Part shown: one piece after another, positions 11,526-61,995 of the stretch
Layout of the letters: each line of letters begins with the position of its first letter
Position numbering within the stretch: position 1 is the stretch's first letter
From: Cetorhinus maximus
Taxonomy: Eukaryota
Length of the DNA: 64,000 bases
Assembly (NCBI RefSeq): GCF_964194155.1
Contig: NC_135893.1
Location: 94,922,001 to 94,986,000, forward strand
Direction: 5' to 3'
Program-made: the position numbers and the translations under genes
Notes under the pieces: model-generated
Databases searched by the model: none
What the model was told of the DNA's origin: nothing
The model's input: only the letters and a program-made list of their open reading frames with translations

Positions 11526-12037
11526 AATAAAAACAGCCAATGCTGGAAATACTCAGCAGCTTAGACAGCATCTGTGAAGAGAGAAAAAGAATTAACATTT
11601 CATCTTGATCACTCTACATAAGAACAGGAAAAGGTTAGAAATTTAACAGTTTATTATCAAGTTCAGAGCCAAGAGGAAAGGGGGGGGATGGGAACAGGGA
11701 GAAATGTTCTTTGACAGAGTGGAAGGCAGGAATGACAAAATAAAAAAGGAAGAATGTGCAGGGTTATGTGGAGAAGGCGAGAGAACGGTAACAGGGGAAT
11801 TGCTCAGTCAGGGAGCTGGTGCAGACACAATGGGCCGAATGGCCTCCTTCTGCACTGTAACAATTCTGGGATGACGGAGCCAGGCAAAGGAGAGGCGGTA
11901 GTAGGAGAAGAAACAAAAAATGGCTCCAGAGGAGCTGTAAACGTCCATATTATGATGCGAAATTGTTGAATTCAATGTTGTGTCCAGAAGGCCGAAAAGT
12001 GCCTAATCAAAAGATGAGGTGATGCTTCTCAAGCTTC
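11526..12037 (-). mobile_element. Penelope-like 3' end with pLTR, interrupted by a short CR1-type 3' fragment (~11750-11870)
   Basis: Minus strand encodes KLEKHHLIF*LGTFRPSGHNIEFNN (PLE endonuclease C-terminus), followed by the shared pLTR (GATGCTG..CTGCTGAGTATTTCCAGCA). Confidence 0.65.
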
Positions 12038-31060: not shown

Positions 31061-31210
31061 AATAAAACCAGAAAATGCTGGAAATACTCAGCAGGTCTAG
31101 CAGGCTCTGTAGAAGGAAGGAGAGTTAATATTTTTTGAGTCAAATATGACTCTTCTTCAGACTTCTGTTTTTATTTCAGATTTCCAACCCCACATTATTT
31201 TGTTTTTATT
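31061..31210 (-). mobile_element. Penelope pLTR remnant with decayed hammerhead motif and short inverted tail
   Basis: Minus strand CTGAAGA-A-GAGTC-ATATTT-GACTC-AAAA..TTAACTC, followed by the pLTR body. Confidence 0.6.
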
Positions 31211-32861: not shown

Positions 32862-34277
32862 CTAAGTGGAGAGGGGAGAAACGATTTTAAAAGCCTAAAG
32901 CAAACACAAGAAAATGTAGTTATTTTATAAATTCAGAAAAGAATTAATGTCTCTCAGTTCGATTTGAGTGCTAAGTTTAAAAAGATAATTTCAGTACTCT
33001 ACCACCTTTACCACAAGATTGCAAGTCAAAATCCCAGGATTACAGGTCACTCAACTGCACCTACTTCAATATCTCTCCATCAATCTCCCACCAACTGCAT
33101 ACAAACATTCGAGACCAAGCGCAGTCTGCAGGTGAAATAGGGTTAGAGGGTCGGGTGGCTTTCTTGCCTCTCCTAGGAGATTGCATGGCTGCTAGTGGGA
33201 TCAGGTGCTCCAAACATCATGAGTATGGGACAGTCTTGATGGACTACTTGATCCTTTCCTGTCAGTCATTGACAAGGGTGCACAGACATAACTCCTCCTC
33301 GTTTTAGTCAAATTGTATATTTAACATTTAAGCGCCATTATCTTTATATTTCCATGTCCACATTTATTATGGAAACAAAATCACAGAAACTGCTCATGTA
33401 GCCTTGTGTTAAACTGCAATCACATCCTCATGCCTGTGGATGAAGTTAGCAGGCAGTACACACAAACATGAAGACCTTGAAATTTCATGGGGGCTCCACT
33501 GGGAACTCAAGACAACGTAAGTGGCTGCATTCATCCAATGCGCCATTTCACTGGGTGCTACGCCGGTCTCCCATTTGAGTTACACTGGGGAGATGGATAG
33601 GACACTTGTGGAATTTCACTGCCTGGATCAAATATTCTCCAGTGTTGCTCATAAGAAGTTGGAGGATATGGCATTTCAGTAACAGCAGTAGTGCACCACG
33701 TAACACAATGTACCTTTCCGCTGCCTAGTTGCAGTTGTGTTAAACTGGATCTAAACCTTTAAAGATAAAGTCTAATTTCTGTCTACACAAAACATAAAGT
33801 TAATTAGGGGTTGATTGATGTTCAAATTTTGCAGATTGGCAAGTACTTGTAAATGTTTGGCTGCAGGTCAGAAAAAATTTGTCAAATGACTGCCTTTGTT
33901 TTTTATTTTTATAAAAATTCCTAAGTACAGTGTTTGAAGTGCAACATTCCTAACACGCATGTTTATGACTAATTATGCTCATATAGAAATATCAGTCTCA
34001 AGTAGAGCTTTCAATTTCAGGGAAGCACCTATACCAGGTAACTCAGGTCACTTGCATGAATGTTATTACAATCATTTCGTATTTAACACTACATAACAGG
34101 GCAAAAGAATCAATTCCTCATCAAAATTAATTGCCTGCTGTAACCTAAGCACTGTTTGAAAGAGTCACCAACACACTGAAGGAAGGCTCCAAACAGTAAA
34201 AAAATTACTTGTAATTAACTGCGGATGAACCACAACACAAGCTTCTTTTGCTCCGTGCTAAAGTAATATGACCTCAC

Positions 34278-34476
34278 CTGTTTTCTTTGGCCCTCTCCAT
34301 ATCACAGCATCATCTGGAGTCTCCAAGAGAAAGCCTATTGACATCAAGCACATTGTTTTATCTTTGTCTACATAAACTGGTACCCAACCAGCATCGCATT
34401 GATGTACAGCGCTATTCAGAACATTCAGCATCCGAGGGATGCTGGGGCCACACAAATCAATGTCCAGAATTCCAAC
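34278..34476 (-). CDS. NUBP2: NUBP2 exon 3
   Basis: TAG|[17 protein letters not shown]...[23 protein letters not shown]|GTGAG, 199 nt. Confidence 0.95.
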
Positions 34477-36344
34477 CTAAAATAAAACAATTCAGCAATA
34501 AATTAAACAAGCAACTGAAAGGGCTTGAAAGCAGAGATTGCCTAGAATGATAGCAAAACTAGAGGTTATAATAATGAATAACTGTAATTTCTTTTAGGAA
34601 GAGGTTAAATTAGTTGGGGGGTGGGGGTGGAGGATGATCAAAAGGAGGTTTACAAAATTATGCAAGGATTTCAAAGAGCACAGTGAAAAACTGTTACCAA
34701 CATAAACCAGACTCAAAATAGCAAAAATAGAGGGAAGCTGGAATATTTCACAGCGTCATCGGAACATGGAATGTTTTACCGCAAATGGTTCGAGACATAA
34801 AAACTAAATTAAAAAGTAAATTGGATAAGCACTTGGTAAGACCGCAAAAGGATTTGAACATTTGAAATATTTTCTTTTTAAATGTATCTATTCCACAAGT
34901 GTTTTAAAGCATTCAATATTTTTCTTAGTTACATACCACTTTCTTTTCCCTCTGATGAGATTTGGAACAAATTTAAGAAAATTTTAGACTGCTTCGGCCA
35001 GCAGACTAGAAACAATCTGCGACAGTGATCAGGAAGTTTTTCTTGCTGGCAAACTATCCAGTTGCACTGTGAAATTCTGGAACAAAGGATTGCCTTATAT
35101 GCTGTAATTCTCCACAATGAGTTCCTTGTGACAAATAGATTGACCATGAGGTATTGAGCAGTCGTGCATATGCCCTTACTGATTGTTCAGAAGCGGCACC
35201 AACAAAGTTTTGGGAAGTCGTTGCTTGGCCTACTGGTGGGAACACTGTATGGATCAGCGGAACAAAGTTCAGGAGAAAACACTTTCACAAATTAAGCCAA
35301 GGGGGTAACGTATGCATTAATTGTAAATTAATTGCAAGTTGGGGTAGAGTTTCAGCTAGGTTACACTGGGTCATTCAAAAATTGGCCAAAACGTAAGACA
35401 AGATACAGGGTTTTCAAGCGCAAATTGAGGTTGAGGTCTTTTGAGCTGGTTTAAAAATGGACGCTGGGCCTGCCCACAAAACAGGCACCCAACCGGGGGT
35501 GGGGGGAGAAAATCAAATGGATGTTTTCAAAATTATGCAAGGATTGAGCTAATCACCATGTTGCGTTTCCACTACGCGTGCCTACGTGTAGCCCTTTGAG
35601 GATGCTCTTAAAATTGATTTGCTTTTTCTTTTAGGCGCAAGGACAATGATAGGCACCTTTTAAAAGCTTTTTAAAATATTAAAACTGACTGCTTTACACC
35701 AACGAAACTAGTATATGGTATTTTATTTTTAAAAGTTGTCTTCAGTTATTTAAGATCAGGTGGTGGACGAGACACTTATTAAGCATGCTTACTTTATGTG
35801 ATGAAACATATTTTCAGCTGTATTAATAAAACTGCTCCAGGTTGTTACTCTTAAATATATCAAGCATTATTTTTCAATGTAAGAAAACAAAAATAATGTA
35901 ATTATGCTCTAAAACACTGCCCATTTTATGTTCGGTGATTTGCAAATAAGCAGAGATTTCAGCAAAAAAAATTCAATTTAGGAAACCAGTGTGATTCTGA
36001 GCGCATTTTGCACCCAAAACAGAAAGGTCAGGAAAAGTAAACTTGAGTTCTTGCTCTGGTGCAGAGTCAGCAGCTGCATGGGCATAAAGGGAAGAAATAG
36101 ATTCCTTATGTCTTCAAACTTCTAGATTTGTGTTTGTTTCTTTTGCCACCATCAGCATGTTTTGCATAGTTTTTTTCTTTTCTGCTGCCATGTTGTGCCT
36201 TAATGGACTCATCAATGAGGTAGCATCCTGTGACAGAAAAGGTACTCATTTTTTAAAGCAATATCCTTTCACACAAAGTTTCAATCGTTTTTGTTGAGCA
36301 TCAGTAGCATATTCCCCACCTTTTCTACATTTATTTCATCTTAC

Positions 36345-36457
36345 CCTTTTCCCTGCATTTCTCAGTGCAAGCGCTAACTCTGTTGTTATGGTACTTTTCC
36401 CAACTCCTCCTTTGCCAGAAAGAACTAGCAGGATGTGGTCAACAGCAGCTAGGTTAT
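36345..36457 (-). CDS. NUBP2: NUBP2 exon 2 (deviant Walker A)
   Basis: AAG|(D)[37 protein letters not shown]|GTAAG, 113 nt. Confidence 0.93.
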
Positions 36458-37169
36458 CTTGGTTTAAAAAAGAGAGGTACATTATTAAAATTATGCACAT
36501 TTCAGCAACTTAAATAGATCAAGACACAGCCTAATTTACAGGGCAAATAAATGTAGGTTAATTCCAGTGGTTTCAAAACTTTCAGGTCCTTACTTATTTG
36601 TCAATTGCAATACTACTGGGTTTCTGTTGTCCCCTGAATAAGTGCTACATTCAACCAAGAGATCACCCTCCCCTGGCAGGGAATGTGCACTTGTCACTTT
36701 ACTCCATATGTCCTAAGGATTTCATACAAATATTTGAGCCTAATGTCTTTCTTCACACTGTTTGTTTTTAAATAGCCCTACAGAGGACTTAAAAAGACAA
36801 GTGAGGAGGCTGTTGGTGTAGAAATAACACCATTCAACAAGTTCATATAGTTTCCTTTCCATTTTATTGAGATGTTTAATTTTTCCACTTTACTCCCTAA
36901 TCTCCTGAAGATGGTAATCCATACTGCGCATTGGCAAACTCGTCGTTCAAGTGGAAATTCTCATAAGCTACAGGACACATAGTGCTATTTGACTTTTGGT
37001 GGTATTATAGCCAAATTTGATATTCATGTTCAGGTGCTTCCACCAGGAGGTCTCAGATAGCTGGCACCTTGACTGACTTCAGCTCAATGGTCACAGGAAC
37101 TAACTGCAGCACTCTGCCCTCTATACAGATCAGCACTAAACCTGGAACCTTCCTGCACCTTAAACACAC

Positions 37170-37290
37170 AGGTCATTGACCTGAAACGTTAACTTTGTTT
37201 CTCTCCACAGATGCTGCCTGACCTGCTGAGTGTTTCCAGCATTTTCTGTTCTCATTTCAGGTTTCCAACATCCACAGTATTTTGCTTTTG
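37170..37290 (+). mobile_element. Penelope pLTR fragment, truncated within the hammerhead
   Basis: GGTC-ATT-GACC-T-GAAACGTT-AACT followed by GATGCTGCCTGACCTGCTGAG. Confidence 0.65.
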
Positions 37291-37726: not shown

Positions 37727-37985
37727 CCTTAGTTAATATCACCACCGTCAACACCCCTTTGTCCTTTTGTCTATGACATCTTTGGCAATCTCTTCTTTGC
37801 CTCCACCTATCACTGGCTCTCTATCCAGCTCTACCTGGCCCACCCCTCAATCAGCTCATATTTCGCCTCATTTCTATATTTCCTTAGTTCTGATGAAGAG
37901 TCATACGGACTCAAAACATTAACTGTGTTCCTCTCCACATATGTTGTCAGACCTGCTGAGTTTTTCCAGCTATTTTTGTTTTTGT
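37727..37985 (+). mobile_element. Penelope 3' UTR plus pLTR with hammerhead motif
   Basis: 13-bp TSD TTCATTTACAATT (37714-37726 and 37986-37998); AGTT-CTGATGA-A-GAGTC-ATACG-GACTC-AAAACATT-AACT at 37886-37924. Confidence 0.8.
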
Positions 37986-38571
37986 TTCATTTACAATTAT
38001 CCTTTTTCACCCCCCAAAAAAAATCCACTCTTCTCCTGAAGGTGGCAATACTTGACTGGGTACATTGCATAGTCGCTTGTCCGGTACTTTGGTTAAATAG
38101 TAATTTTTCAACACACAGACCAGTCAGCATCAACAGGCTTTTCAACTCTCTCCTGTCCTGATCCAATAACCACGTAGGCCTAATTTTAGCAAGTGTGACT
38201 AGATAGAAATCAGAGGCAGGGAGCTAGCCAATTTATCCTTTCCTAACTCAGCAGTATCAAAGATAACGGAAGTGCCCACACCTACCTGTACCAGTAGGGG
38301 GCAACGTGAGTCAGTGCTGGAATCAAGGGCTTTGCTTGACAGAAACAGGGATAGAAACTGGAAACGCTACGAATTATACATGTCTGTCAGTATCTTTGAA
38401 AGGCAAGCTACTTGTCAGATGTACACCCTCCCTCAGACCTTTAAAACTAAATGATAAGCAAGCCCCTTATCAGAGGAGAAAGAGAAGGGAGAGAAAGGGA
38501 ACAAGACAACAAATACATTAATCCCAAGAGGAATTTAACAGGTTGAATAACCTGGAAATTTAATAGATTAG

Positions 38572-39367: not shown

Positions 39368-39503
39368 GGGCTGGAATTGGGGGGGGGGGGGGGGGGGGGA
39401 GTTAAGAGTTGTATTGTACTTTCGGCGTAACTCACGCCCAAAATTGCTCGTATTTGAATTGTGCCTGGTCTCTGGTCTCAAAAGACCCTGGAAATTCCAG
39501 CCC
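39368..39503. mobile_element. MITE-like element
   Basis: Perfect 11-bp terminal inverted repeats GGGCTGGAATT and AATTCCAGCCC. Confidence 0.5.
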
Positions 39504-39844
39504 AGGGCGCTTTCCCTGGGCTATTTACATTGATTTATATCCAATTGGGGTGGGGAGGCCAGGATGTGACTTTCATTGATTAGAACACCCATAACTCCAC
39601 ATATAAAACTAGACAGCAGTTAGATTAACATTTTTAAAGGACCATTCCATGAAGTGAGGCCCGCGTTGAGACATGACTCCACCCCTTTAAAAACTCATCG
39701 ACAGAAGAAGCTCGACAGTCGGATATATGTCTTTCCAGTCTGTGGGAGCAGTGGTTCCCAGGCCCTGACCAAGTCACCAGCCCTTCCCCGCCCGTCACTT
39801 TCCAAACGCAGCCGTCTCCTAGCCCCGAGGCCTCGAAACCTTAC

Positions 39845-39860
39845 CTTCCGCGGCCGCCAT
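39845..39860 (-). CDS. NUBP2: NUBP2 exon 1 coding part (MAAAE, phase 1)
   Basis: AAC ATG GCG GCC GCG GAA G|GTAAG inside the CpG island; the phase fits exon 2. Total spliced CDS is 819 nt (272 aa). Confidence 0.9.
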
Positions 39861-40249
39861 GTTGCCCGGCTTCCGCGCAACAGCCGCCGGGCGCATGCGC
39901 GCAGACGCGCACGTCGTCACGTGGCCGCTCACGCCATCACGTGCCTACGCGCGCAACGGCACGCACACTGTCACGTGGACCTACCTCCTCCTCCTCCACC
40001 TCCACCACCCACCCAGGGGCACGCAACGCTTCCGATCTCCAAGCGCGCTCGCGCTGATCGCCTCAGCTTGAAGGCTGTGGAGAGAGTGGGCGGGGCAATC
40101 GAACGCGGTATGATCGACGCGCGTATTATCCACTCAGGATACAGATCTTTCGGACGGCGTTGGGTCGGATAGACGAATGGAAAACGGGCGGGAGGGGAGT
40201 GGGCGGGGATTCAAGTTTGGTTGAGCACTCAGCCCTCTATATATATAGA

Positions 40250-40364
40250 GGAAAGGCGAGTGGGTTAGGTTGAGCGGGCATTGACTAGTGGTGGGGAGGA
40301 GAGAAGCTGTGTTGTTGTTGTAGTAAAGGGCAGGAAGCTCGGGAGAGCCAGGGCGTTAATCAAG
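40250..40364 (+). other. SPSB3: Putative SPSB3 non-coding exon 1
   Basis: Donor-like AAG|GTGGGT at 40364/40365, downstream of the GC boxes and TATA-like palindrome. The ATG exon at 52649 has an acceptor, so an upstream exon is required. The start position is a guess. Confidence 0.35.
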
Positions 40365-41349
40365 GTGGGTGTCCGTTGAACGTAAACAGCTTTTATTCGG
40401 AAGGTGCCGCCGCGGTGTAGTTTGTGCCGGGGTGGAGAAGGCGCTTTTCTGTGGTGTTTTTTTTATTTGTGTGAGTGGGGCCTGCGGATCCGGGGGCTGG
40501 ATTCACCAGGCTCCCCTGGTTTGTGTAGCGCTCTCCGGGTGTCGTCGCCACCCCCCCCCCCCCCCCTCAAAAAAAAAATTAAAAATCCGTTTTATACAAA
40601 ACTGACCAATTGTATAAAATCCTTAACCCGTTGGCATAATTCGTTGTCCGTTGGTTTATCTTCCACTGTAAACTTAATACATGAATTTTGGGGGAAGAGG
40701 GGAACGGCTGCTGTGCACCCGCGCAATGAGGGAAAAAAATATAAATAAATATATATATAAATAAATAAATAAAGGCAAATCCCTTTTTCTTACAAGTGTT
40801 TTTTTTTGTTGGAGCTCCAAATCTAATCACCACTCCAATCTGATATTTTAAACCGCGCCAACTCCTTGAATTTCTTTAGCTCCCTGTTTCTTCCCCCCAC
40901 CCTCCTTTTTTTTACACACACAGCTTAAGCCTTTGTACATTGAAATAAATACACACCATTCATACCTGAGCGGCTTTTACACGTCTGTTACCTGCGTGGA
41001 GATGCGTGACCTGACTGGTCATATTGGTACTCTGGTGAAGGATGAGCTGTCAGTTTTATTTTTTTGTTCTTGGTTCAGGTGAGCGAGCTGTGTGTGTGTG
41101 TGTGCGCTCCTCTCTTCACTCTCTTCGTCTGTGAACGAGCCTGTGAAGTTGCCAAGTAGTCCTGACACTGCTTCCGATGAAATGCAGGTCGGTTTCATTC
41201 TCAGGAATGCAAAGGGGGGGTAGAGAGATCTAGAATTTATCTGGTCGTATCTCCTTTTTTTTTTACTCCAGTAATTAGTCAGTTGTAACTCTTTCGAGTT
41301 ATCAACAGATCGCGTGTAACTCTTTCGAGTACATTCACAGTTCTTGGTT

Positions 41350-41428
41350 TCCCGGAGTGGGACATGAACCCACAGCCCTCTGAGTCAAAGGCGAGAGTGC
41401 TATGAACTGAGCCACAGCTGACACCTCA
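41350..41428 (-). mobile_element. tRNA-derived SINE head (SacSINE1-like)
   Basis: GTCAGCTGTGGCTCAGTT..TAGCACTCTCGCCT..GGGTTCATGTCCCACTCC on the minus strand. Confidence 0.6.
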
Positions 41429-41835
41429 AATTAGTCAGTCGTACAAGCATTTTTTTTTAAGAAGATAAAGGTAGATAATTAGGTTGTTTTAGACTTGAAC
41501 TTTATCTGTTACCCAATTGAACAAGGAATTGTGGCACTGTGGAATAAATACTAGTACACTACGATGTACCCTTGAGCCTAAACACTTAAGATGTGATAAG
41601 GGTCCCTATGATGTGTTGCTGGACCCTTTAGACAAATTGAATTCTACTTTAGTAGAGTTGCAAGTGCTTTATTTTTAAAATTTTTATCCTGATTAATGAT
41701 GTTGCAGAGCTTCTTTTGAAAGTTTTTTTTTCTCTGATGTATCCATTATTCAGTTGGTGTGGGACCAAACAGCTTTCAAATTTCTGCAAGTGCCAATTAC
41801 TAGGCATGCTTAAAGCCAGTGCATCATGTTTCTCT

Positions 41836-42896
41836 GAAATAAAAACAGAAAATGCTGGGAAAAGCTCAGCAGGTCTGGTAGCACCTGTGGAGAGACAAAC
41901 AGTTAATGCTTTGAGCCTGGATGACTCCTTCAGAATTGGAAAGGTAGAAATGTAATGGATTTTATGCTGTTGAAGAGGGGGTGGAGCAACAGAGAAGGTC
42001 ATGGATGGGTGAGGGCCAAGGAAAGATGTCATGGACACAGGACAAAGGGAGTGTTAATGGTAGTGGTAAAGACTGAAGAAGGTGCTGATAGTGGCATAAT
42101 GGTAAGATAGCAGAACAAGGGTCAGTGCTCTGACCACGAAACATAACGAGTGATAGTTGGCCCTGTTTTTGGGGGTTGGGGGTGGTTGGGGTAAAAAAAA
42201 ATTGGATTTTAAAAAGGGGTCTTGGTCTGAAGATGTTGAACTCTATGTTAAGTCCAGAAGGCTGTAAAGTGCCCAGATGGGAAGATGAAGTGCAGTTCCT
42301 CTAGTTTGTGTTGGGCTGCACTGGAACATTGCAATAAGCCAAAGACAGACATGGGTGCATGAGAACAAGTTTCTGCTTTGAGAGCATAGTGGATTCCCCC
42401 GCTCTCAAGTTTGTATGTATTAAGTTTATAGTGGAAGATAGTGAATGCATGTGATAATGTCCATGAGAATAAGAGGGTTGTCCACTTCTTCCTTGAACAG
42501 AGGTCCAAACAATCCCCCCTCCACCTGGCTGAACTTGTTCTCTCTGAACAATTTCTCCTTTAATTTGTATCACTTCCTCCAAGTAAAAGGTGTGGCTATG
42601 GGTACCCACATGGGCCCCAGTTATGCCTATCTTTTTGTGGGATATGTGGAACATTTCTTGTTTCAACCCTACTCAGGCCCCCTCCCACAACTCTTCCAGT
42701 ACATTGACTGTATTGGTGCCATCTTGTCAACCTGGAAAAATTCATTGGGTTTGTTTTTTTGCTTTCAATTTCCACCCCCCTCTCTCCTTCACATGATTCA
42801 TCTCTGACACTTCCCTGCCCTCCCTTGACCCCTCTGTCTCCATTTCTAGTGATAGACTGCCTACCAATATTCATTACAAGTCCACCTCCCATCCAC
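41836..42896. mobile_element. Penelope-like insertion with internal inversion (pLTR and EN tail on -, RT fragment on +)
   Basis: Minus: QHKLEELHFIF and pLTR. Plus: LNNFSFNLYHFLQVKGVAMGTHMGPSYAYLFVGYVE. 11-bp TSD CATGTTTCTCT (41825-41835 and 42897-42907). Confidence 0.8.
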
Positions 42897-47508: not shown

Positions 47509-50090
47509 AGGCCATATGGACTCAAAACTTTAACTGTTTCCCTCTCCACAGATGCTGCCAGACCTGAGTTTTTCCAGCATCTGCAGTATTTTGCTTTTAT
47601 CTTCTGTGCTTGTTGTATGGAGATATTTTTGGCTTTCTTCTTTGGTCTGTGCAGAGTCTTTTACACTCCATTCTAACAAATTAGATTTTCTTTGGTCAGG
47701 AGGGGTCATCATGAAGATCTGATTTTTATATTTGTTTATCTTGTGCTTTATGTAATCCTATTTGGTAAGATGTGTTATGGCAGCCTGCAACTTGTTTAAT
47801 GCTCCTGCATATTAAACAAAGAGTTTAAAGTCACATGCCTTTGTGACCTTGCATGAGTCATCAGCAGAATTGCTATTTATGGCATGATTTTGTGGGACCA
47901 TATGTGGGACATGCTAAAACATTATGGAAGGAAACTTGTAGAATAAATATCCATATTTCATGATGGATCCAAATACATTTCCTTTCCCCTTCAGTGTACT
48001 TGTCTTTTTGGAACAAAGCACTAGTGATCACTTGGCTCTCCTGTGCTTCAGCTTGCTTTCACATTTGGCATTGTATATCTGTTCAGTGACTCAGATTAAG
48101 ATACAAGTCTTTCTTTTATCCTTTCGTTTCATTTTCACAACACAATAACATTGCACCCTGCCACAACCAGTGTATCAACATTTTAAGTCTATGAAAGAGT
48201 CCTGAATCAGTAATGCATATCATAGTCGGTAATACTGCCTGCAAGCAAAACCATTCTCATTTATTAAACAGGCAAGTGATAAAGGAAGATCCAATCATCA
48301 TATCAATAACCATATCTGTCATTGGCTTTCATTTTCAGCACTAGAAAAACCTCTTCAGAACACAGATTTAATAGGAAATTGAAGCCTTGCACCCTTCAGC
48401 CACTAGATATGCATCACCCACCTCTAAAGAAGCCTGTATTATGGATTGGAAATAATTATGCATGTTCTGAAGAATCTATTTGCATGCTGCACAAAGGAAT
48501 ACCTTTCACTTCATATTGCCTGAAGATTGTAAATATTAAGCAACACAAAAAGAAATAACCTTAATCACCAGTTAGGGCTTGTATAAGGAGCTGTTATCAG
48601 CAGACTTGTAGACCTTTATATTAACTCTGTCTTCCTCCACCTCACCCAGCCCCAGTCCCCACAATGGGCAGACAGGGGTCAGGATTAACAATGGGAATGA
48701 AAAGGATGTGACCCCCCCCCCCCCCACCCCAAGGGTGCAGCATTTGCATCAGTTGCCTTTTTGTTTCACAACTGAATTTTGTGGCATTTGCTTTTAAGCA
48801 TAATTTGCATAATATCTTCAAGTAACTTGAACTGTAGGCTTTAAACCTATTTTTATTCTTTCATGGGATGTGAATATCACTGGCTAAGCCAGTATTTATT
48901 GTTCATCCCTAATTGCTCTTGAGAACGTGGTGGTGATGTGCTGCCTCTTGAACTGCTACAGTCCATATTGTAGGTACACCCATAGTGCTTTTAGGGGAAG
49001 GGGTTTCCAGGATTTTGACCCAGTGACAGTGCAGGAATGGCCATATAGTTCCAAGTGTGGTTTGGAGGGGTGCTTGCAGGTGGTGGTGTTCCTAAGCACC
49101 TGCTGCCCTTATCCTTCTAGATGGTAAAGCTGGCAGGTTTGGAAGGTGTAATTGAAGGAGCCTTGATGAGTTGCTGCATTGCATCTTGTAGATGGTACAT
49201 ACTGCTGCCAAGTTGATGATGGAGGGAGTGCCAATCAAGAGGGCTGCTTTGTCCTGGATCGTTGTCAAGCTTCTTGTGGTGTTGGAGCTGTACTCACCCA
49301 GGCAAGTAGAGAGTATGCCAACACACTCCTGACTTGAGCACTGTAGATGGCGGACAGGCTTTGGGAGTCAGGACGGGAGTGACACTGTGCAGAATTCTCA
49401 GCCTCAGATGCTCTTATAGTCAGTGTTTACATGGCTGGTCAGTGGTAACCCTCAATGTTGATAGTGGGGGATTTGGCAATAATGTAATTGAATGTCATGG
49501 GGAGATGGTTAGATTCCCTTGGAGATGGTCATTGCTCAGCACTTACGTGGTGTGAATGTTACTTGCCACTTGTCAGCCCAAGCCTGAATTTTGTCCAGGT
49601 CTTGATCCATAGACAGACTGCTTCAGTATCTGAGGAATTGTAAATGGTTCTGAACATTATGCAGTTATTAGCATACATCCCTGCTTCTGACCTTATGATG
49701 AGTGGGAAGGTCATTGAAGCAGCTGAAGATGGTCGGGCCTAGGACACTACCTTGAGGAACTCCTGCAGTGATATCCTGGAACTGAGGCAATTGACCTCTA
49801 ATAACCACACCACTCTTTGTGCTTAGTATGACTCCAACCAGTGAAGAATTTTCCCCTGATTACCACAAACTTCAGTTTTGCTAGGACTCTTTGATCACAT
49901 GCTACCTTGATGTTGAGGGCAGTCACTCTCACCTCGAATTTGGCACTTTTGTCCATGTTTGAACAAGGGCTGTTATGAGACCAGGAGCTGAGTGGCCCTG
50001 GCAGAACTAAGTCAGCAGCAAAGTTATTGCTGAACTAAGTGCTGCTTGATAGCACTGTTGACACCCCTTCTATTACTTTGAGAGTAGACT

Positions 50091-51990
50091 ATTAGAATCA
50101 ATTGAGACAGGATAAACTGTCACTTAACAAAAACAGAATTACCTAGAAAAACACAGCAGGTCTGGCAGCATCGGCGGAGAAGAAAAGAGTCGACGTTTCG
50201 AGTCCACATGACCCTTCAACAGAACTGAGTATAGTTAGGAGAGGGGTGAAATATAAGTTGGTTTAAGGTGGGGGGCGGGGGGAGAGAAGTTGAGGGTGGG
50301 GTGGTTGTAGGGACAAGCAAGCAGTGATAGGAGCAGATAATCAAAAGATGTCACAGACAAAAGGATAAGAGACAGGCGGAAATCCTGTCGGAGAATAGAG
50401 CAATACTTCTTCAAGGAAGGCATTTCTTGAAGAGAAGTGGCAGTCAATTAAACACAGAGATAAAAATAAAAAACTACTGCGGATGCTGGAAATCCAAAAC
50501 AAAAACAGAATTACCTGGAAAAATTCAGCAGGTCTGGCAGCATCGGTGGAGAAGAAAAGAGTCGACGTTTCGAGTCCACATGACCCTTCAACAGAACTGA
50601 GTATAGTTCAGTAGTTTTTTTGTTTTTATCCCAGCATCCGCAGTAGTTTTTTGTTTTTATCTGTGTTTAATTGACTGCCACTTCTCTTCAAGAAATGCCT
50701 TCCTTGAAGAAGTATTGCTCTGTTCTCCGACAGGATTTCTGCCTGTCTCTTATCCTTTTGTCTGTGACATCTTTTGATTATCTGCTCCTATCACTGCTTG
50801 CTTGTCCCTACAACCACCCCACCCTCAACTTCTCTCCCCCCGCCCCCCACTTAAACCAACTTATATTTCACCCCTCTCCTAACTATACTTAGTTCTGTTG
50901 AAGGGTCATGTGGACTCGAAACGTCGACTCTTTTCTTCTCCACCGATGCTGCCAGACCTGCTGAGTTTTTCCAGGTAATTCTGTTTTTGTTTTGGATTTC
51001 CAGCATCCGCAGTAGTTTTTTGTTTTTAAACTGTCACTTAGAAAGGAATGGATTAATCTGGGATAGTCAACAGGGGGCGGTAATGTCTGTCTTCCTCAAA
51101 ACATTCGGTTAAGCTAGTATCAAGGAGGATTGAGGATAGTGTGGTGGGTGTTGTCTACGTAGATTTTAGTAAGGCATTTGACAAGGTCCCACATGGCCGA
51201 CTGGTCAGAAAAGTAAAAGCCTATGGGATACAAGGGAATGTTGTGATTTGGATCCAAAATTGACTCTCTGATAGGAAACAAAAGGTAATGGTTTGTGGAT
51301 GTTTTTGCAAATGGAAAGCAGTTTCCAGTGGTGTTCCATGGGGCTCGGTGTTTGGTCTCTTGCTGTTTGCTATATTAATGATTTGGTCTTAAATATGGGA
51401 GGCATGATTGGGGAAGTTTGCAGGTGACATGAAATTTGGCTGTGTAGTTGATTGTGTAGAGGATGGCTGACTCCAGAATGATATCGATGGTTTGTTTGAG
51501 TGGGCAGAAAAGTGGTAAATGGAATTCAATCCGGAGAAGTGAGGTAATGCATTTGGGGAGGGCAAACAAAGCTAGGGAATACACAATAAAAAGGAGGATA
51601 TGAGGAAAGATTGGAAAGGCTAGGGTTGTTTCTCTTAGAACAGAGGATGCTGAGGGGTGACTGAATTGAGGTGTATAAAGTTGAGGGGCCTAGATAGAAT
51701 GGACTGGAATGACCTGTTTTCCCCTAGCGGAGAGGTCAATTACTGGGGCATAAATTTAAGGTGTTTGGTATGAGGATTAGAGGGGCCTTGAGGAAAAACT
51801 TCTGGTGGGTGTCTAGAATTCACTGCTTGGTTTGGTGGTGGAGGCAGAAACCCTCAACTCATTTAAATGGGTACCTGGATCTGCACCTAAAGTGCTGTAA
51901 CCCGCAAGGCTACAGCTCAGGTGCTGGAAGGTGGGATTTGATTTTGGCTAATGCAGGCACGATGGGCTGAATGGCCTCATTGTGCCACAA
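50091..51990 (+). mobile_element. CR1 LINE RT/3' portion, itself split by the Penelope insertion
   Basis: ..DRINCHL|ERNGLIWDSQ continues across the Penelope TSD; VYVDFSKAFDKVPHGRLV; CR1 3' end near 51950-51990. Confidence 0.8.
50127..51026. mobile_element. Young non-coding Penelope-derived element with tandem and inverted pLTRs and three hammerhead motifs
   Basis: Perfect 14-bp TSD TAAACTGTCACTTA (50113-50126 and 51027-51040); ~360-bp inverted repeat (50127-50489 vs 50631-50990); direct repeat 50127-50236 and 50499-50608. Confidence 0.88.
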
Positions 51991-52662
51991 CTTGATCAGG
52001 TTGGAGCTGTTTTTTGTGCACAGGACGTACCTGGGCAATTTTCCACATCACAGTGGTTACCAGAGTGTTGTAGCTGTACTAGAATAGCTTGGCTAGGGTG
52101 TGGCTTATTCTGGAGTGAGTGCAAGTCTTTAGTACTATTGTGGGACCCATAGCCTTCGCAGTATCCAGTGCTTTCAGCTGCTTTATCATGTGGTGTGAAT
52201 TGAATTGGCTGAAGACTGACATCTGTGGTGTGAGGAGGCCAAGGTGGAGCATCCACTCTTCACTTCTGGCTGAAGATGGTTGCAAATGCTTCAGCCTTGT
52301 CATTTGCACTGATGTGCTGGGCTCCCCCATCATTGAGGATGGGGATATTTGTAGAGCCTCCTCCTCCAATGAGTTGTTTAATTGCCCTCCACCATCCACA
52401 ACTGGATGTGGCAGGAATGCAGGGCTTGGATCTGATCCGATGGTTATAGAATTGTTTAGGTCTGTCTATCGCATGCTGTTTAAGTGTCTGCTGTATTCTG
52501 CAGAGCCTGAGAGAATCTTGTCATAATGGCTTAATTGGGAAGTTGTTTACTACTTTATTTGAGAGAATTATTTAGTTCTTGAAGTAATTATTTTTTAAAA
52601 AGCTGTCCACTCTTTCTCTAATTTAGTACAAATGTTACTATGTTGCAGGTTTTAGGAGCGCC

Positions 52663-52794
52663 ATGTCTCGTCGTACCAGAAATAATCGTGCCTGGCGGTA
52701 TGTGTACAGTGGTATTCGAGATGCTGAAGCTGTGGCTGTAGTAATGCCTGATGGATCAGTAGGTCCAGGCCCTGGCTATGACTCGGATGGTCAG
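52663..52794 (+). CDS. SPSB3: SPRY domain-containing SOCS box protein 3, first coding exon
   Basis: Acceptor TTGCAG at 52648, Kozak GCCATG; MSRRTRNNRAWRYV...GYDSDGQ|GT resembles human MARRPRNSRAW...GYDSDGQ. Confidence 0.92.
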
Positions 52795-61902: not shown

Positions 61903-61995
61903 AAGAGGAGTCCTATTGGACTCAAAACATTACTGTTTCTCCCTCCACAGGTGCTGCCAGACCTGAGTTTTTTTTCAGCATTTTTGTTTTAATTT
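61903..61995 (+). mobile_element. Solo Penelope pLTR (partial hammerhead)
   Basis: GAGTCC-TATT-GGACTC-AAAAC stem; perfect 12-bp TSD AAATCACTCCCA (61891-61902 and 61996-62007). Confidence 0.75.

What the first reader, a model, noticed from the sequence alone, without database searches (positions are those of the whole stretch)
50127..51026. Young retrozyme-like element with three minimal hammerhead motifs, two in tandem 372 nt apart
Seen: on + at 50891-50929, AGTT-CTGTTGA-A-GGGTC-ATGTG-GACTC-GAAACGTC-GACT. This gives stem I (AGUU/GACU), the core, stem II (GGGUC/GACUC), GAAA, a loop-less palindromic stem III (ACGU) and a predicted GUC cleavage after 50925. Identical copies lie on - at 50188-50226 and 50560-50598. 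The TSD is a perfect 14 bp, CpGs are intact and there is no real ORF. Established: Penelope-like pLTRs carry minimal type I hammerheads that can cleave as dimers, and metazoan retrozymes are tandem non-coding units that yield small circular RNAs. Inference: a minus-strand transcript could fold a double hammerhead in cis and release a 372-nt monomer, and the + copy lies in SPSB3 pre-mRNA. Caveat: all three read CUGUUGA, with U at the conserved A6, so they may be inactive or a core variant.
Basis: partly seen in the sequence, partly recalled or inferred. Interest (0 to 1): 0.7.

Follow-up and report, generated by a model that had tools for sequence, protein, structure and literature searches.

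The report
Deleted Penelope insertion, not a retrozyme
The three ribozyme-like motifs are the normal end signals of a very common Penelope-type jumping gene whose coding middle is missing in this one insertion; the 372-base repeat was found nowhere else in the genome, so it is likely a one-off copying by-product whose ribozymes likely cut little or not at all, rather than a self-spreading circular-RNA element.

Summary
In detail: three identical 39-nt minimal hammerhead motifs, two on minus 372 nt apart, inside a 14-bp target-site duplication. The retrozyme reading mostly fails. The unit is the first 19 codons of a Neptune-type Penelope-like element (PLE) ORF joined to that element's 3' pseudo-LTR, in the textbook head-to-head layout with a one-sided tail. 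The joint occurs only twice in 4 Gb, both here; 22 other insertions carry such joints, none the same as this one. U at core position 6 is the family norm (U 18,939, C 9,617, A 1,436, G 54), also in a copy with an intact 919-codon frame. Copies' 5' ends pile up at the hammerhead's first bases, behind a TATA-like box and initiator, not at the predicted cut (20 of 37 breaks versus 0; A6 subfamily 16 of 40 versus 1), so uncut RNA is the likely template. In SPSB3 pre-mRNA the plus motif is predicted to be buried in a ~380-bp hairpin. Still open: both arms share the private joint, so one joint-bearing template was likely copied twice. The scan noted the core change, the pile-up and similar one-off tandems before, on other DNA.

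The parts
50113..50126 (.). target-site duplication, left copy (14 bp)
50127..50608 (-). inverted arm: truncated pLTR (50463-50608), ORF-start piece (50367-50462), joint, 3' pLTR without tail (50127-50366)
50188..50226 (-). minimal hammerhead motif, U6 core (second in tandem)
50249..50255 (-). TATA-like box 29 nt before that motif (promoter role inferred)
50356..50377 (-). deletion joint, ORF start to 3' pLTR, minus-arm copy
50367..50423 (-). first 19 codons of the PLE ORF
50560..50598 (-). minimal hammerhead motif, U6 core (first in tandem); only 10 nt of pLTR upstream, no TATA-like box
50609..51026 (+). direct arm: two tail fragments (50609-50659), ORF-start piece (50660-50751), joint, 3' pLTR with tail (50752-51026)
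50695..50751 (+). first 19 codons of the PLE ORF (MPSLKKYCSVLRQDFCLSL)
50741..50762 (+). deletion joint (between 50751 and 50752, short microhomology), plus-arm copy; about 2.9 kb of the element absent
50862..50895 (+). TATA-like box (50862-50868) and initiator-like TTAGTTC (50889-50895); likely RNA start near 50891
   Evidence: promoter function inferred
50891..50929 (+). minimal hammerhead motif, U6 core, predicted cut after 50925
50992..51026 (+). 35-nt PLE tail, present at this end only
   Evidence: definition
51027..51040 (.). target-site duplication, right copy

Best explanation
This is a single insertion of an internally deleted copy of a young, abundant Neptune-type Penelope-like retrotransposon, likely made when the protein of an intact family member cut both DNA strands and reverse-transcribed one short, joint-bearing, uncut RNA template from each end, and its hammerheads are likely slow or silent passengers. 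Shown: the unit is ORF start plus 3' pLTR of a protein-coding family; the two arms meet head to head with a tail on one side inside a 14-bp duplication; the joint is private to this locus and identical in both arms; U6 is a family trait; family copies start at the motif's first bases, not at its cut. Inferred: staggered cutting and priming from both ends in trans; a microhomology-guided template switch or an earlier deleted source copy as origin of the joint; RNA start at the initiator-like first base of stem I; weak catalysis.
For: Upstream of unit position 93 in most top genomic hits lies the GIY-YIG end of a PLE ORF; downstream of unit position 97 in many copies lies the ORF itself. L062 holds a 919-codon stop-free frame with RT (E 1.5e-5) and GIY-YIG (E 2e-4) matches, both below Pfam cut-offs, a Cys-rich linker, and CTGTTGA in both pLTRs. 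The exact window 39-mer sits in the 5' pLTR of full-length copy L064. Joint count 2. 16 of the first 21 insertions sampled on contig 1 are inverted pairs and 2 of 21 carry start-to-pLTR joints (read); sister insertions have 12- and 14-bp duplications. 3' ends cluster at unit 334-341 and 372. Same layout, tail and microhomology deletions are described for PLEs (passages). 5' breaks: 20 of 37 at -1..+5 and 0 of 37 at the cut (young sample, 101 copies); 16 of 40 and 1 of 40 (A6 sample, 100 copies). TATATTT at -28..-30 in 57 of 68 and 44 of 58 copies. In vitro, the anole PLE inserts uncut RNA and its protein cuts and extends both strands. A natural A6C core slows cleavage.
Against: No cleavage or RNA-end data: only contigs of runs guessed to be RNA were available. 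The motif is still conserved between A6 and U6 majorities (1 of 32 core and stem positions differ against 29 of 121 flank positions, p 0.006) and G5 changes stay at background (362), so it does something. A re-ligated circle would leave no 5'-end footprint at the cut. No source copy with this joint was found, and the minus arm begins 10 nt upstream of the inferred RNA start, which a simple two-hammerhead linear transcript does not explain. The -1..+5 window was chosen after seeing the data, arms of one insertion are not independent, and the junction search was exact-match only. I found no measured rate for A6U.
Confidence: 0.78

Rival explanations
1. The template was a small RNA circle cut from the element's own 5' region (pLTR positions 98-372 plus the first 97 nt after it are contiguous in intact copies); the reverse transcriptase ran round it more than once from both DNA ends. 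Such one-off circles would be the birth stage of retrozymes.
For: The same joint recurs within a locus in 6 cases (this one, L006 and L052 in both arms; L058 and L101-103 twice; L016-18 four times) but between loci in only 2 pairs; the L040/L047 joint has just 2 genomic copies; no source copy for this locus. Rolling-circle copying was proposed for PLEs.
Against: A transcribed deleted source that was later lost, or copying of the first cDNA, gives the same pattern. The three inner units of the L016 tetramer are identical over 300 nt, which points to recent local expansion. The predicted monomer is not unusually structured (z -1.4). No RNA evidence.
Confidence: 0.12
2. An active retrozyme: a minus-strand transcript folds a double hammerhead with U6, releases a 372-nt monomer that circularises and spreads.
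For: Two complete motifs in tandem, unit length in the retrozyme range (150-450 bp; mean 363 bp in one cartilaginous fish); retrozymes are reported to derive from pLTRs; PLE hammerheads can be protein-assisted.
Against: No family; 1.3 units only; non-canonical core; no TATA-like box before the first motif; antisense arm pairs with a motif in read-through RNA; 28 kcal/mol gap (no known active dimer was run as control); 8 of 9 predicted Xenopus dimers did not cleave in vitro.
Confidence: 0.05
3. The tandem and inversion arose after insertion by DNA rearrangement of a longer PLE copy (deletion, then fold-back or gene conversion).
For: Microhomology at the joint; local expansion is seen at L016-18.
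Against: Both arms end at the family's priming sites right against an intact duplication, and inverted arms are the family norm; two identical independent deletions are unlikely.
Confidence: 0.05

Closest known systems
Endonuclease-bearing Penelope-like elements, Neptune clade (Arkhipova et al. 2013, PMC3846280; Craig et al. 2021, PMC8557442; passages read)
   Same: Two direct pLTRs plus an adjacent inverted truncated pLTR, one-sided 30-40-bp tail, TSD, pLTR region running into the first codons, microhomology-mediated internal deletion; parent ORF has RT, Cys-rich linker and C-terminal GIY-YIG.
   Different: Almost the whole ORF is missing and the same private joint is in both arms; clade assignment rests on the linker motif, not on a tree.
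[quoted passage not shown]
   Same: Short stem I, extra base before stem II, G10.1-C11.1, palindromic loop-less stem III, opposite-strand pairs 100-700 bp apart, predicted dimer action.
   Different: A6 is U or C in 95% of 30,046 pattern-matched copies; the only core variant in the parts read is U3-A8.
Non-LTR retrozymes of animals (Cervera and De la Pena 2020, PMC7229834, passages and one section; Li et al. 2026 bioRxiv 10.64898/2026.07.22.740005, parts 1-3 of 5)
   Same: Non-coding unit of 150-450 bp, two hammerheads in tandem, long TSD, pLTR origin.
   Different: Not a multi-copy family, non-canonical minimal core, no evidence for cleavage or circles, monomer not strongly self-paired.
Poseidon of Anolis carolinensis (Frangieh et al. 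2024, PMC11167929; parts 1-2 of 4)
   Same: Two internal priming sites defining the tail; both strands cut and extended; uncut RNA is the template; no RNA ends at the cut.
   Different: Other clade; its hammerhead cleaves with protein help, which is untested here.

Membership tests
EN+ Penelope-like element (derivative of) | Single ORF with RT and C-terminal GIY-YIG in the parent family | tested here: met
   L062 and L063, 919 and 924 codons; weak Pfam hits below cut-off; absent from this copy except 19 codons
EN+ Penelope-like element (derivative of) | pLTRs in partial tandem with adjacent inverted truncated copy | tested here: met
EN+ Penelope-like element (derivative of) | 30-40-bp tail at one end; TSD | tested here: met
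   35-nt tail at right end only, 14-bp TSD
Neptune clade | Zn-finger-like motif between RT and EN | tested here: met
   CPRKRCNTC before the GIY-YIG in L062; criterion
Neptune clade | RT phylogeny with reference elements | not tested
   no reference PLE proteins were fetched
Minimal type I hammerhead | Stems I and II, GAAA, palindromic stem III, H17 | tested here: met
   sequence
Minimal type I hammerhead | Core C3 U4 G5 A6 N7 G8 A9 | tested here: not met
   U6 in all three copies; family U 63%, C 32%, A 4.8%
Minimal type I hammerhead | Stem covariation | tested here: inconclusive
   25 recurrent types: 0 of 11 pairs change on both sides, 4 vary on one side with pairing mostly kept; not above shuffles; rows were pre-filtered for pairing
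Minimal type I hammerhead | Self-cleavage | not testable with these tools
   indirect only: no 5'-end pile-up at the cut
Non-LTR retrozyme | Non-coding tandem unit of 150-450 bp with two consecutive motifs | tested here: met
   372 nt, two motifs, 1.3 units
Non-LTR retrozyme | Multi-copy family amplified as its own unit | tested here: not met
   joint 22-mer: 2 matches, both here; no other full-length hit above 92% among 40 scored of 3277 candidates
Non-LTR retrozyme | Canonical, efficiently cleaving type I hammerhead | tested here: not met
   minimal architecture with U6; Rfam no hit; activity itself untested
Non-LTR retrozyme | Abundant circular RNA | not testable with these tools
   no raw reads offered
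Non-LTR retrozyme | Highly self-paired monomer | tested here: not met
   z -1.4 linear; 44% paired as circle

The most novel reading that the evidence does not exclude
Neptune reverse transcriptase routinely copies short one-off RNA circles (about 240-600 nt) made from its own promoter-hammerhead end, from both ends of the cut target, so that this locus and many sister loci are retrozymes caught at birth; the U6/C6 hammerhead sits at the very start of the RNA and is kept as a slowed, protein- or Mn2+-gated switch that removes the capped first 35 bases.
Probability: 0.13. Interest if true: 0.68.

Novelty: new variant of a known kind. Interest (0 to 1): 0.34.

Why it matters
The locus itself is an ordinary by-product and a caution: two hammerheads a few hundred bases apart do not make a retrozyme in a genome with about 30,000 pLTR motifs. 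The family-level facts are more useful. A lineage that replaced A6 in 95% of matched copies while staying mobile is a natural test of whether PLEs need their ribozyme to cut. 5' ends at the motif's first base place the ribozyme at the RNA start. A private joint present in both arms constrains how the inverted structure forms, which the literature read here calls undefined, and offers a concrete route from pLTR to retrozyme.

Tried and rejected
Rfam scan: no hammerhead family hit. SPRY family search of the genome: top 150 matches lay elsewhere and did not help place SPSB3; PDB search did. PDB search with the PLE ORF: no hit. Sequencing runs: no RNA holder listed on record; all were contigs, so no start, end, strand, level or circle could be read, and the letter at core position 6 in other organisms was not among the rows shown; an empty allele of the site was not seen or excluded. 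Covariation count: no two-sided change, not above shuffles. Idea that the L016 tetramer proves rolling-circle copying: rejected, inner units identical. Idea that A6 copies show a cleavage footprint lost in U6/C6 copies: not supported, 1 of 40 against 0 of 37. Idea that joints are splice products at the YAG before the motif: only L042 of the joints comes near, with a mismatch; not pursued. Idea that the L040/L047 joint marks an amplified retrozyme family: rejected, 2 copies. Literature searches for an A6U hammerhead or a shark PLE ribozyme: 'hammerhead + catalytic core + A6U' 0 papers, 'CUGUUGA' 333 papers of which the 15 listed were unrelated, 'ribozyme + Penelope + shark' 2 listed, not opened, listings only. 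Lunse et al. 2017 on PLE hammerhead variants was not held and may already describe position-6 variants; one of three supplement files of PMC4209133 could not be searched and the other two gave no hit; the supplements of the 2026 preprint were not seen.

Full report
1. Observation. The 39-mer is identical at 50891-50929 (+), 50560-50598 (-) and 50188-50226 (-), and the 14-bp duplication flanks 50127-51026. The repeat finder shows one direct family at 372-nt spacing and long inverted arms. The arms differ at 7 of 332 columns. The window lies on contig 15 of a 3.99-Gb genome; a cartilaginous fish is my inference from recall, not from a call. An SPSB3 exon on + is confirmed; a likely first coding exon near 52650-52794 and a CpG island at 39.5-41.5 kb (that exon was found with recalled motifs) put the insertion probably in the 5' intron. 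NUBP2-like exons lie on minus at 34-36.5 kb (name recalled).

2. What the unit is. Of 40 scored candidates (3277 found), most match only unit positions 92-372 at 94-99%; upstream of that point they read into the end of a GIY-YIG ORF. The first 89 nt after the tail match many loci at 99-100%; there they run on into a long ORF starting MPSLKKY, as both arms here do for 19 codons. Of 14 stretches fetched, L062 and L063 have stop-free frames of 919 and 924 codons, with weak RT and GIY-YIG hits and a Cys-rich linker. So the unit is ORF start joined to the last 275 nt of the element, about 2.9 kb missing, at a short microhomology. The joint 22-mer occurs twice in the genome, once in each arm here.

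3. The layout is standard. Direct pLTRs with an adjacent inverted truncated copy, a one-sided 30-40-bp tail, a TSD and microhomology deletions are described for PLEs (PMC3846280 and PMC8557442, passages), and opposite-strand hammerhead pairs 100-700 bp apart in PMC4209133 (parts 1-2 of 4). In the first 30 pattern matches on contig 1, which I read as 21 insertions, 16 are inverted pairs and 2 carry start-to-pLTR joints (two-armed insertions are favoured by this sampling). Among the 29 other loci kept, 13 carry such a joint; with 8 and L101-103 that makes 22 other insertions, none with this joint; left breaks fall mostly 55-100 nt after the ATG and right breaks never pass the hammerhead's 5' edge. 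3' ends cluster at unit 334-341 and 372; this insertion uses one of each.

4. The core. With fixed flanks, position 6 is U in 18,939, C in 9,617, A in 1,436 and G in 54 matches (reversed controls 0); these counts cover only subfamilies fitting the pattern. G5 is changed in 362, about the level of decay after insertion. Intact L062 has U6 in both pLTRs, so the change did not stop mobility. A6 and U6/C6 copies mostly form two clades about 23% apart, with 5 of 101 U6 copies on the A6 side. Between the majorities 1 of 32 core and stem positions differs against 29 of 121 flank positions (p 0.006; 0 of 17 for positions not fixed by the selecting pattern, p 0.023). Covariation was not shown: no two-sided change in 11 pairs over 25 recurrent types, chosen from 129 types and pre-filtered for pairing. 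A natural A6C slows cleavage in Mg2+ and keeps it in Mn2+ (PMC3088659 passages; PMC7151607 part 1 of 4). My searches found no A6U report, but Lunse et al. 2017 was not available (title seen) and some supplements were not seen.

5. Does it cut? Indirect test: if cut RNA were copied, 5' ends would fall just after GUC. In 101 young copies anchored downstream of the cut, 37 break within the 56-nt window, 20 at -1..+5 of stem I's first base and 0 within 2 nt of the cut; in 100 A6-subfamily copies, 40 break, 16 at the edge and 1 at the cut. The window was set after seeing the data, paired arms are not independent, two A6 breaks are internal deletions, and the young pattern required A or T at one far position. 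TATATTT lies at -28..-30 in 57 of 68 and 44 of 58 copies that extend that far, and the edge reads as an initiator (lead from an earlier scan note). The likely RNA start is therefore the motif's first base and uncut RNA the usual template, as in vitro for the anole element (PMC11167929, parts 1-2 of 4). Re-ligated circles would escape this test. Sequencing runs offered contigs only.

6. This locus as RNA. A plus read-through such as SPSB3 pre-mRNA is predicted to form one hairpin of about 380 bp (-738 kcal/mol, z -57), with the plus motif paired to an antisense copy. A minus read-through pairs one of the two motifs likewise. A transcript of the tandem alone needs a start at 50598, which lacks the TATA-like box; its double hammerhead is 28 kcal/mol above the best fold (the model ignores tertiary contacts and protein, and no active dimer was run as control). 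The monomer is unremarkable (z -1.4), unlike the self-paired retrozyme circles described in PMC7229834 (one section and passages).

7. Mechanism and what stays open. Most likely the family protein, in trans, cut both strands 14 bp apart and primed cDNA from each end at the two tail sites; the two cDNAs were joined head to head. Because both arms carry the same private joint, the template already had it. The same within-locus recurrence is seen at L006, L052, L058, L101-103 and L016-18, while only two pairs of loci share a joint and one of these has just 2 genomic copies. A deleted source copy since lost, re-copying of the first cDNA, or a one-off RNA circle all fit; I could not separate them. 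The 2026 preprint (parts 1-3 of 5) argues that animal retrozymes derive from pLTRs; these loci show a route, but this one has not amplified.

8. Verdict. Works like a non-autonomous, internally deleted PLE copy; member of the PLE insertion class; not a member of the retrozyme family on three tested features. The class 'new variant' rests on the family-wide U6/C6 core. The scan noted the core change, the 5'-end pile-up and other one-off tandems before, on other DNA; a search for the shared-joint idea and for this sequence returned nothing. Interest 0.34.

Noticed in passing
window 50862-50980 (+): The plus arm has an intact TATA-like box and initiator followed by a donor-like CAG|GTAATT at 50974/50975, in SPSB3's orientation and 1.7 kb before its likely first coding exon: a possible alternative first exon.
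   Followed up: no
window 50127-51026: The insertion would put a ~380-bp near-perfect RNA duplex into SPSB3 pre-mRNA, a likely substrate for A-to-I editing or dsRNA sensors.
   Followed up: partly
L016-L018 (G000:C11:102663590-102665040): Four tandem 367-nt deleted units with a C6 core, three identical over 300 nt: the most retrozyme-like locus seen, probably a recent local expansion; its joint was not counted genome-wide.
   Followed up: partly
L033, L042, L060: Three deletion joints land exactly at the hammerhead's 5' edge, the inferred RNA start, as expected for a template jump from the RNA's 5' end.
   Followed up: partly
L123 (G000:C1:11019252): One A6-subfamily copy begins at the predicted cut site; 1 of 40 breaks, compatible with chance.
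   Followed up: yes
window 34261-36509 (-) and 39500-41500: NUBP2-like exons on minus and a CpG island suggest a head-to-head promoter shared with SPSB3 (name recalled).
   Followed up: no
window 11543-11587, 31078-31103, 37171-37283, 37883-37987, 41837-41903, 47510-47577, 61917-61965: Older, decayed pLTR fragments of related families; those with a readable core show A at position 6.
   Followed up: partly
G000:C22:1.2-30.8 Mb: A very large cluster of SPRY-domain exons, over 100 of the 150 listed matches.
   Followed up: no
window 51040-51700: The right flank runs into a decayed LINE-like reverse-transcriptase stretch that is highly repeated in the laid runs (CR1-type by recall).
   Followed up: no
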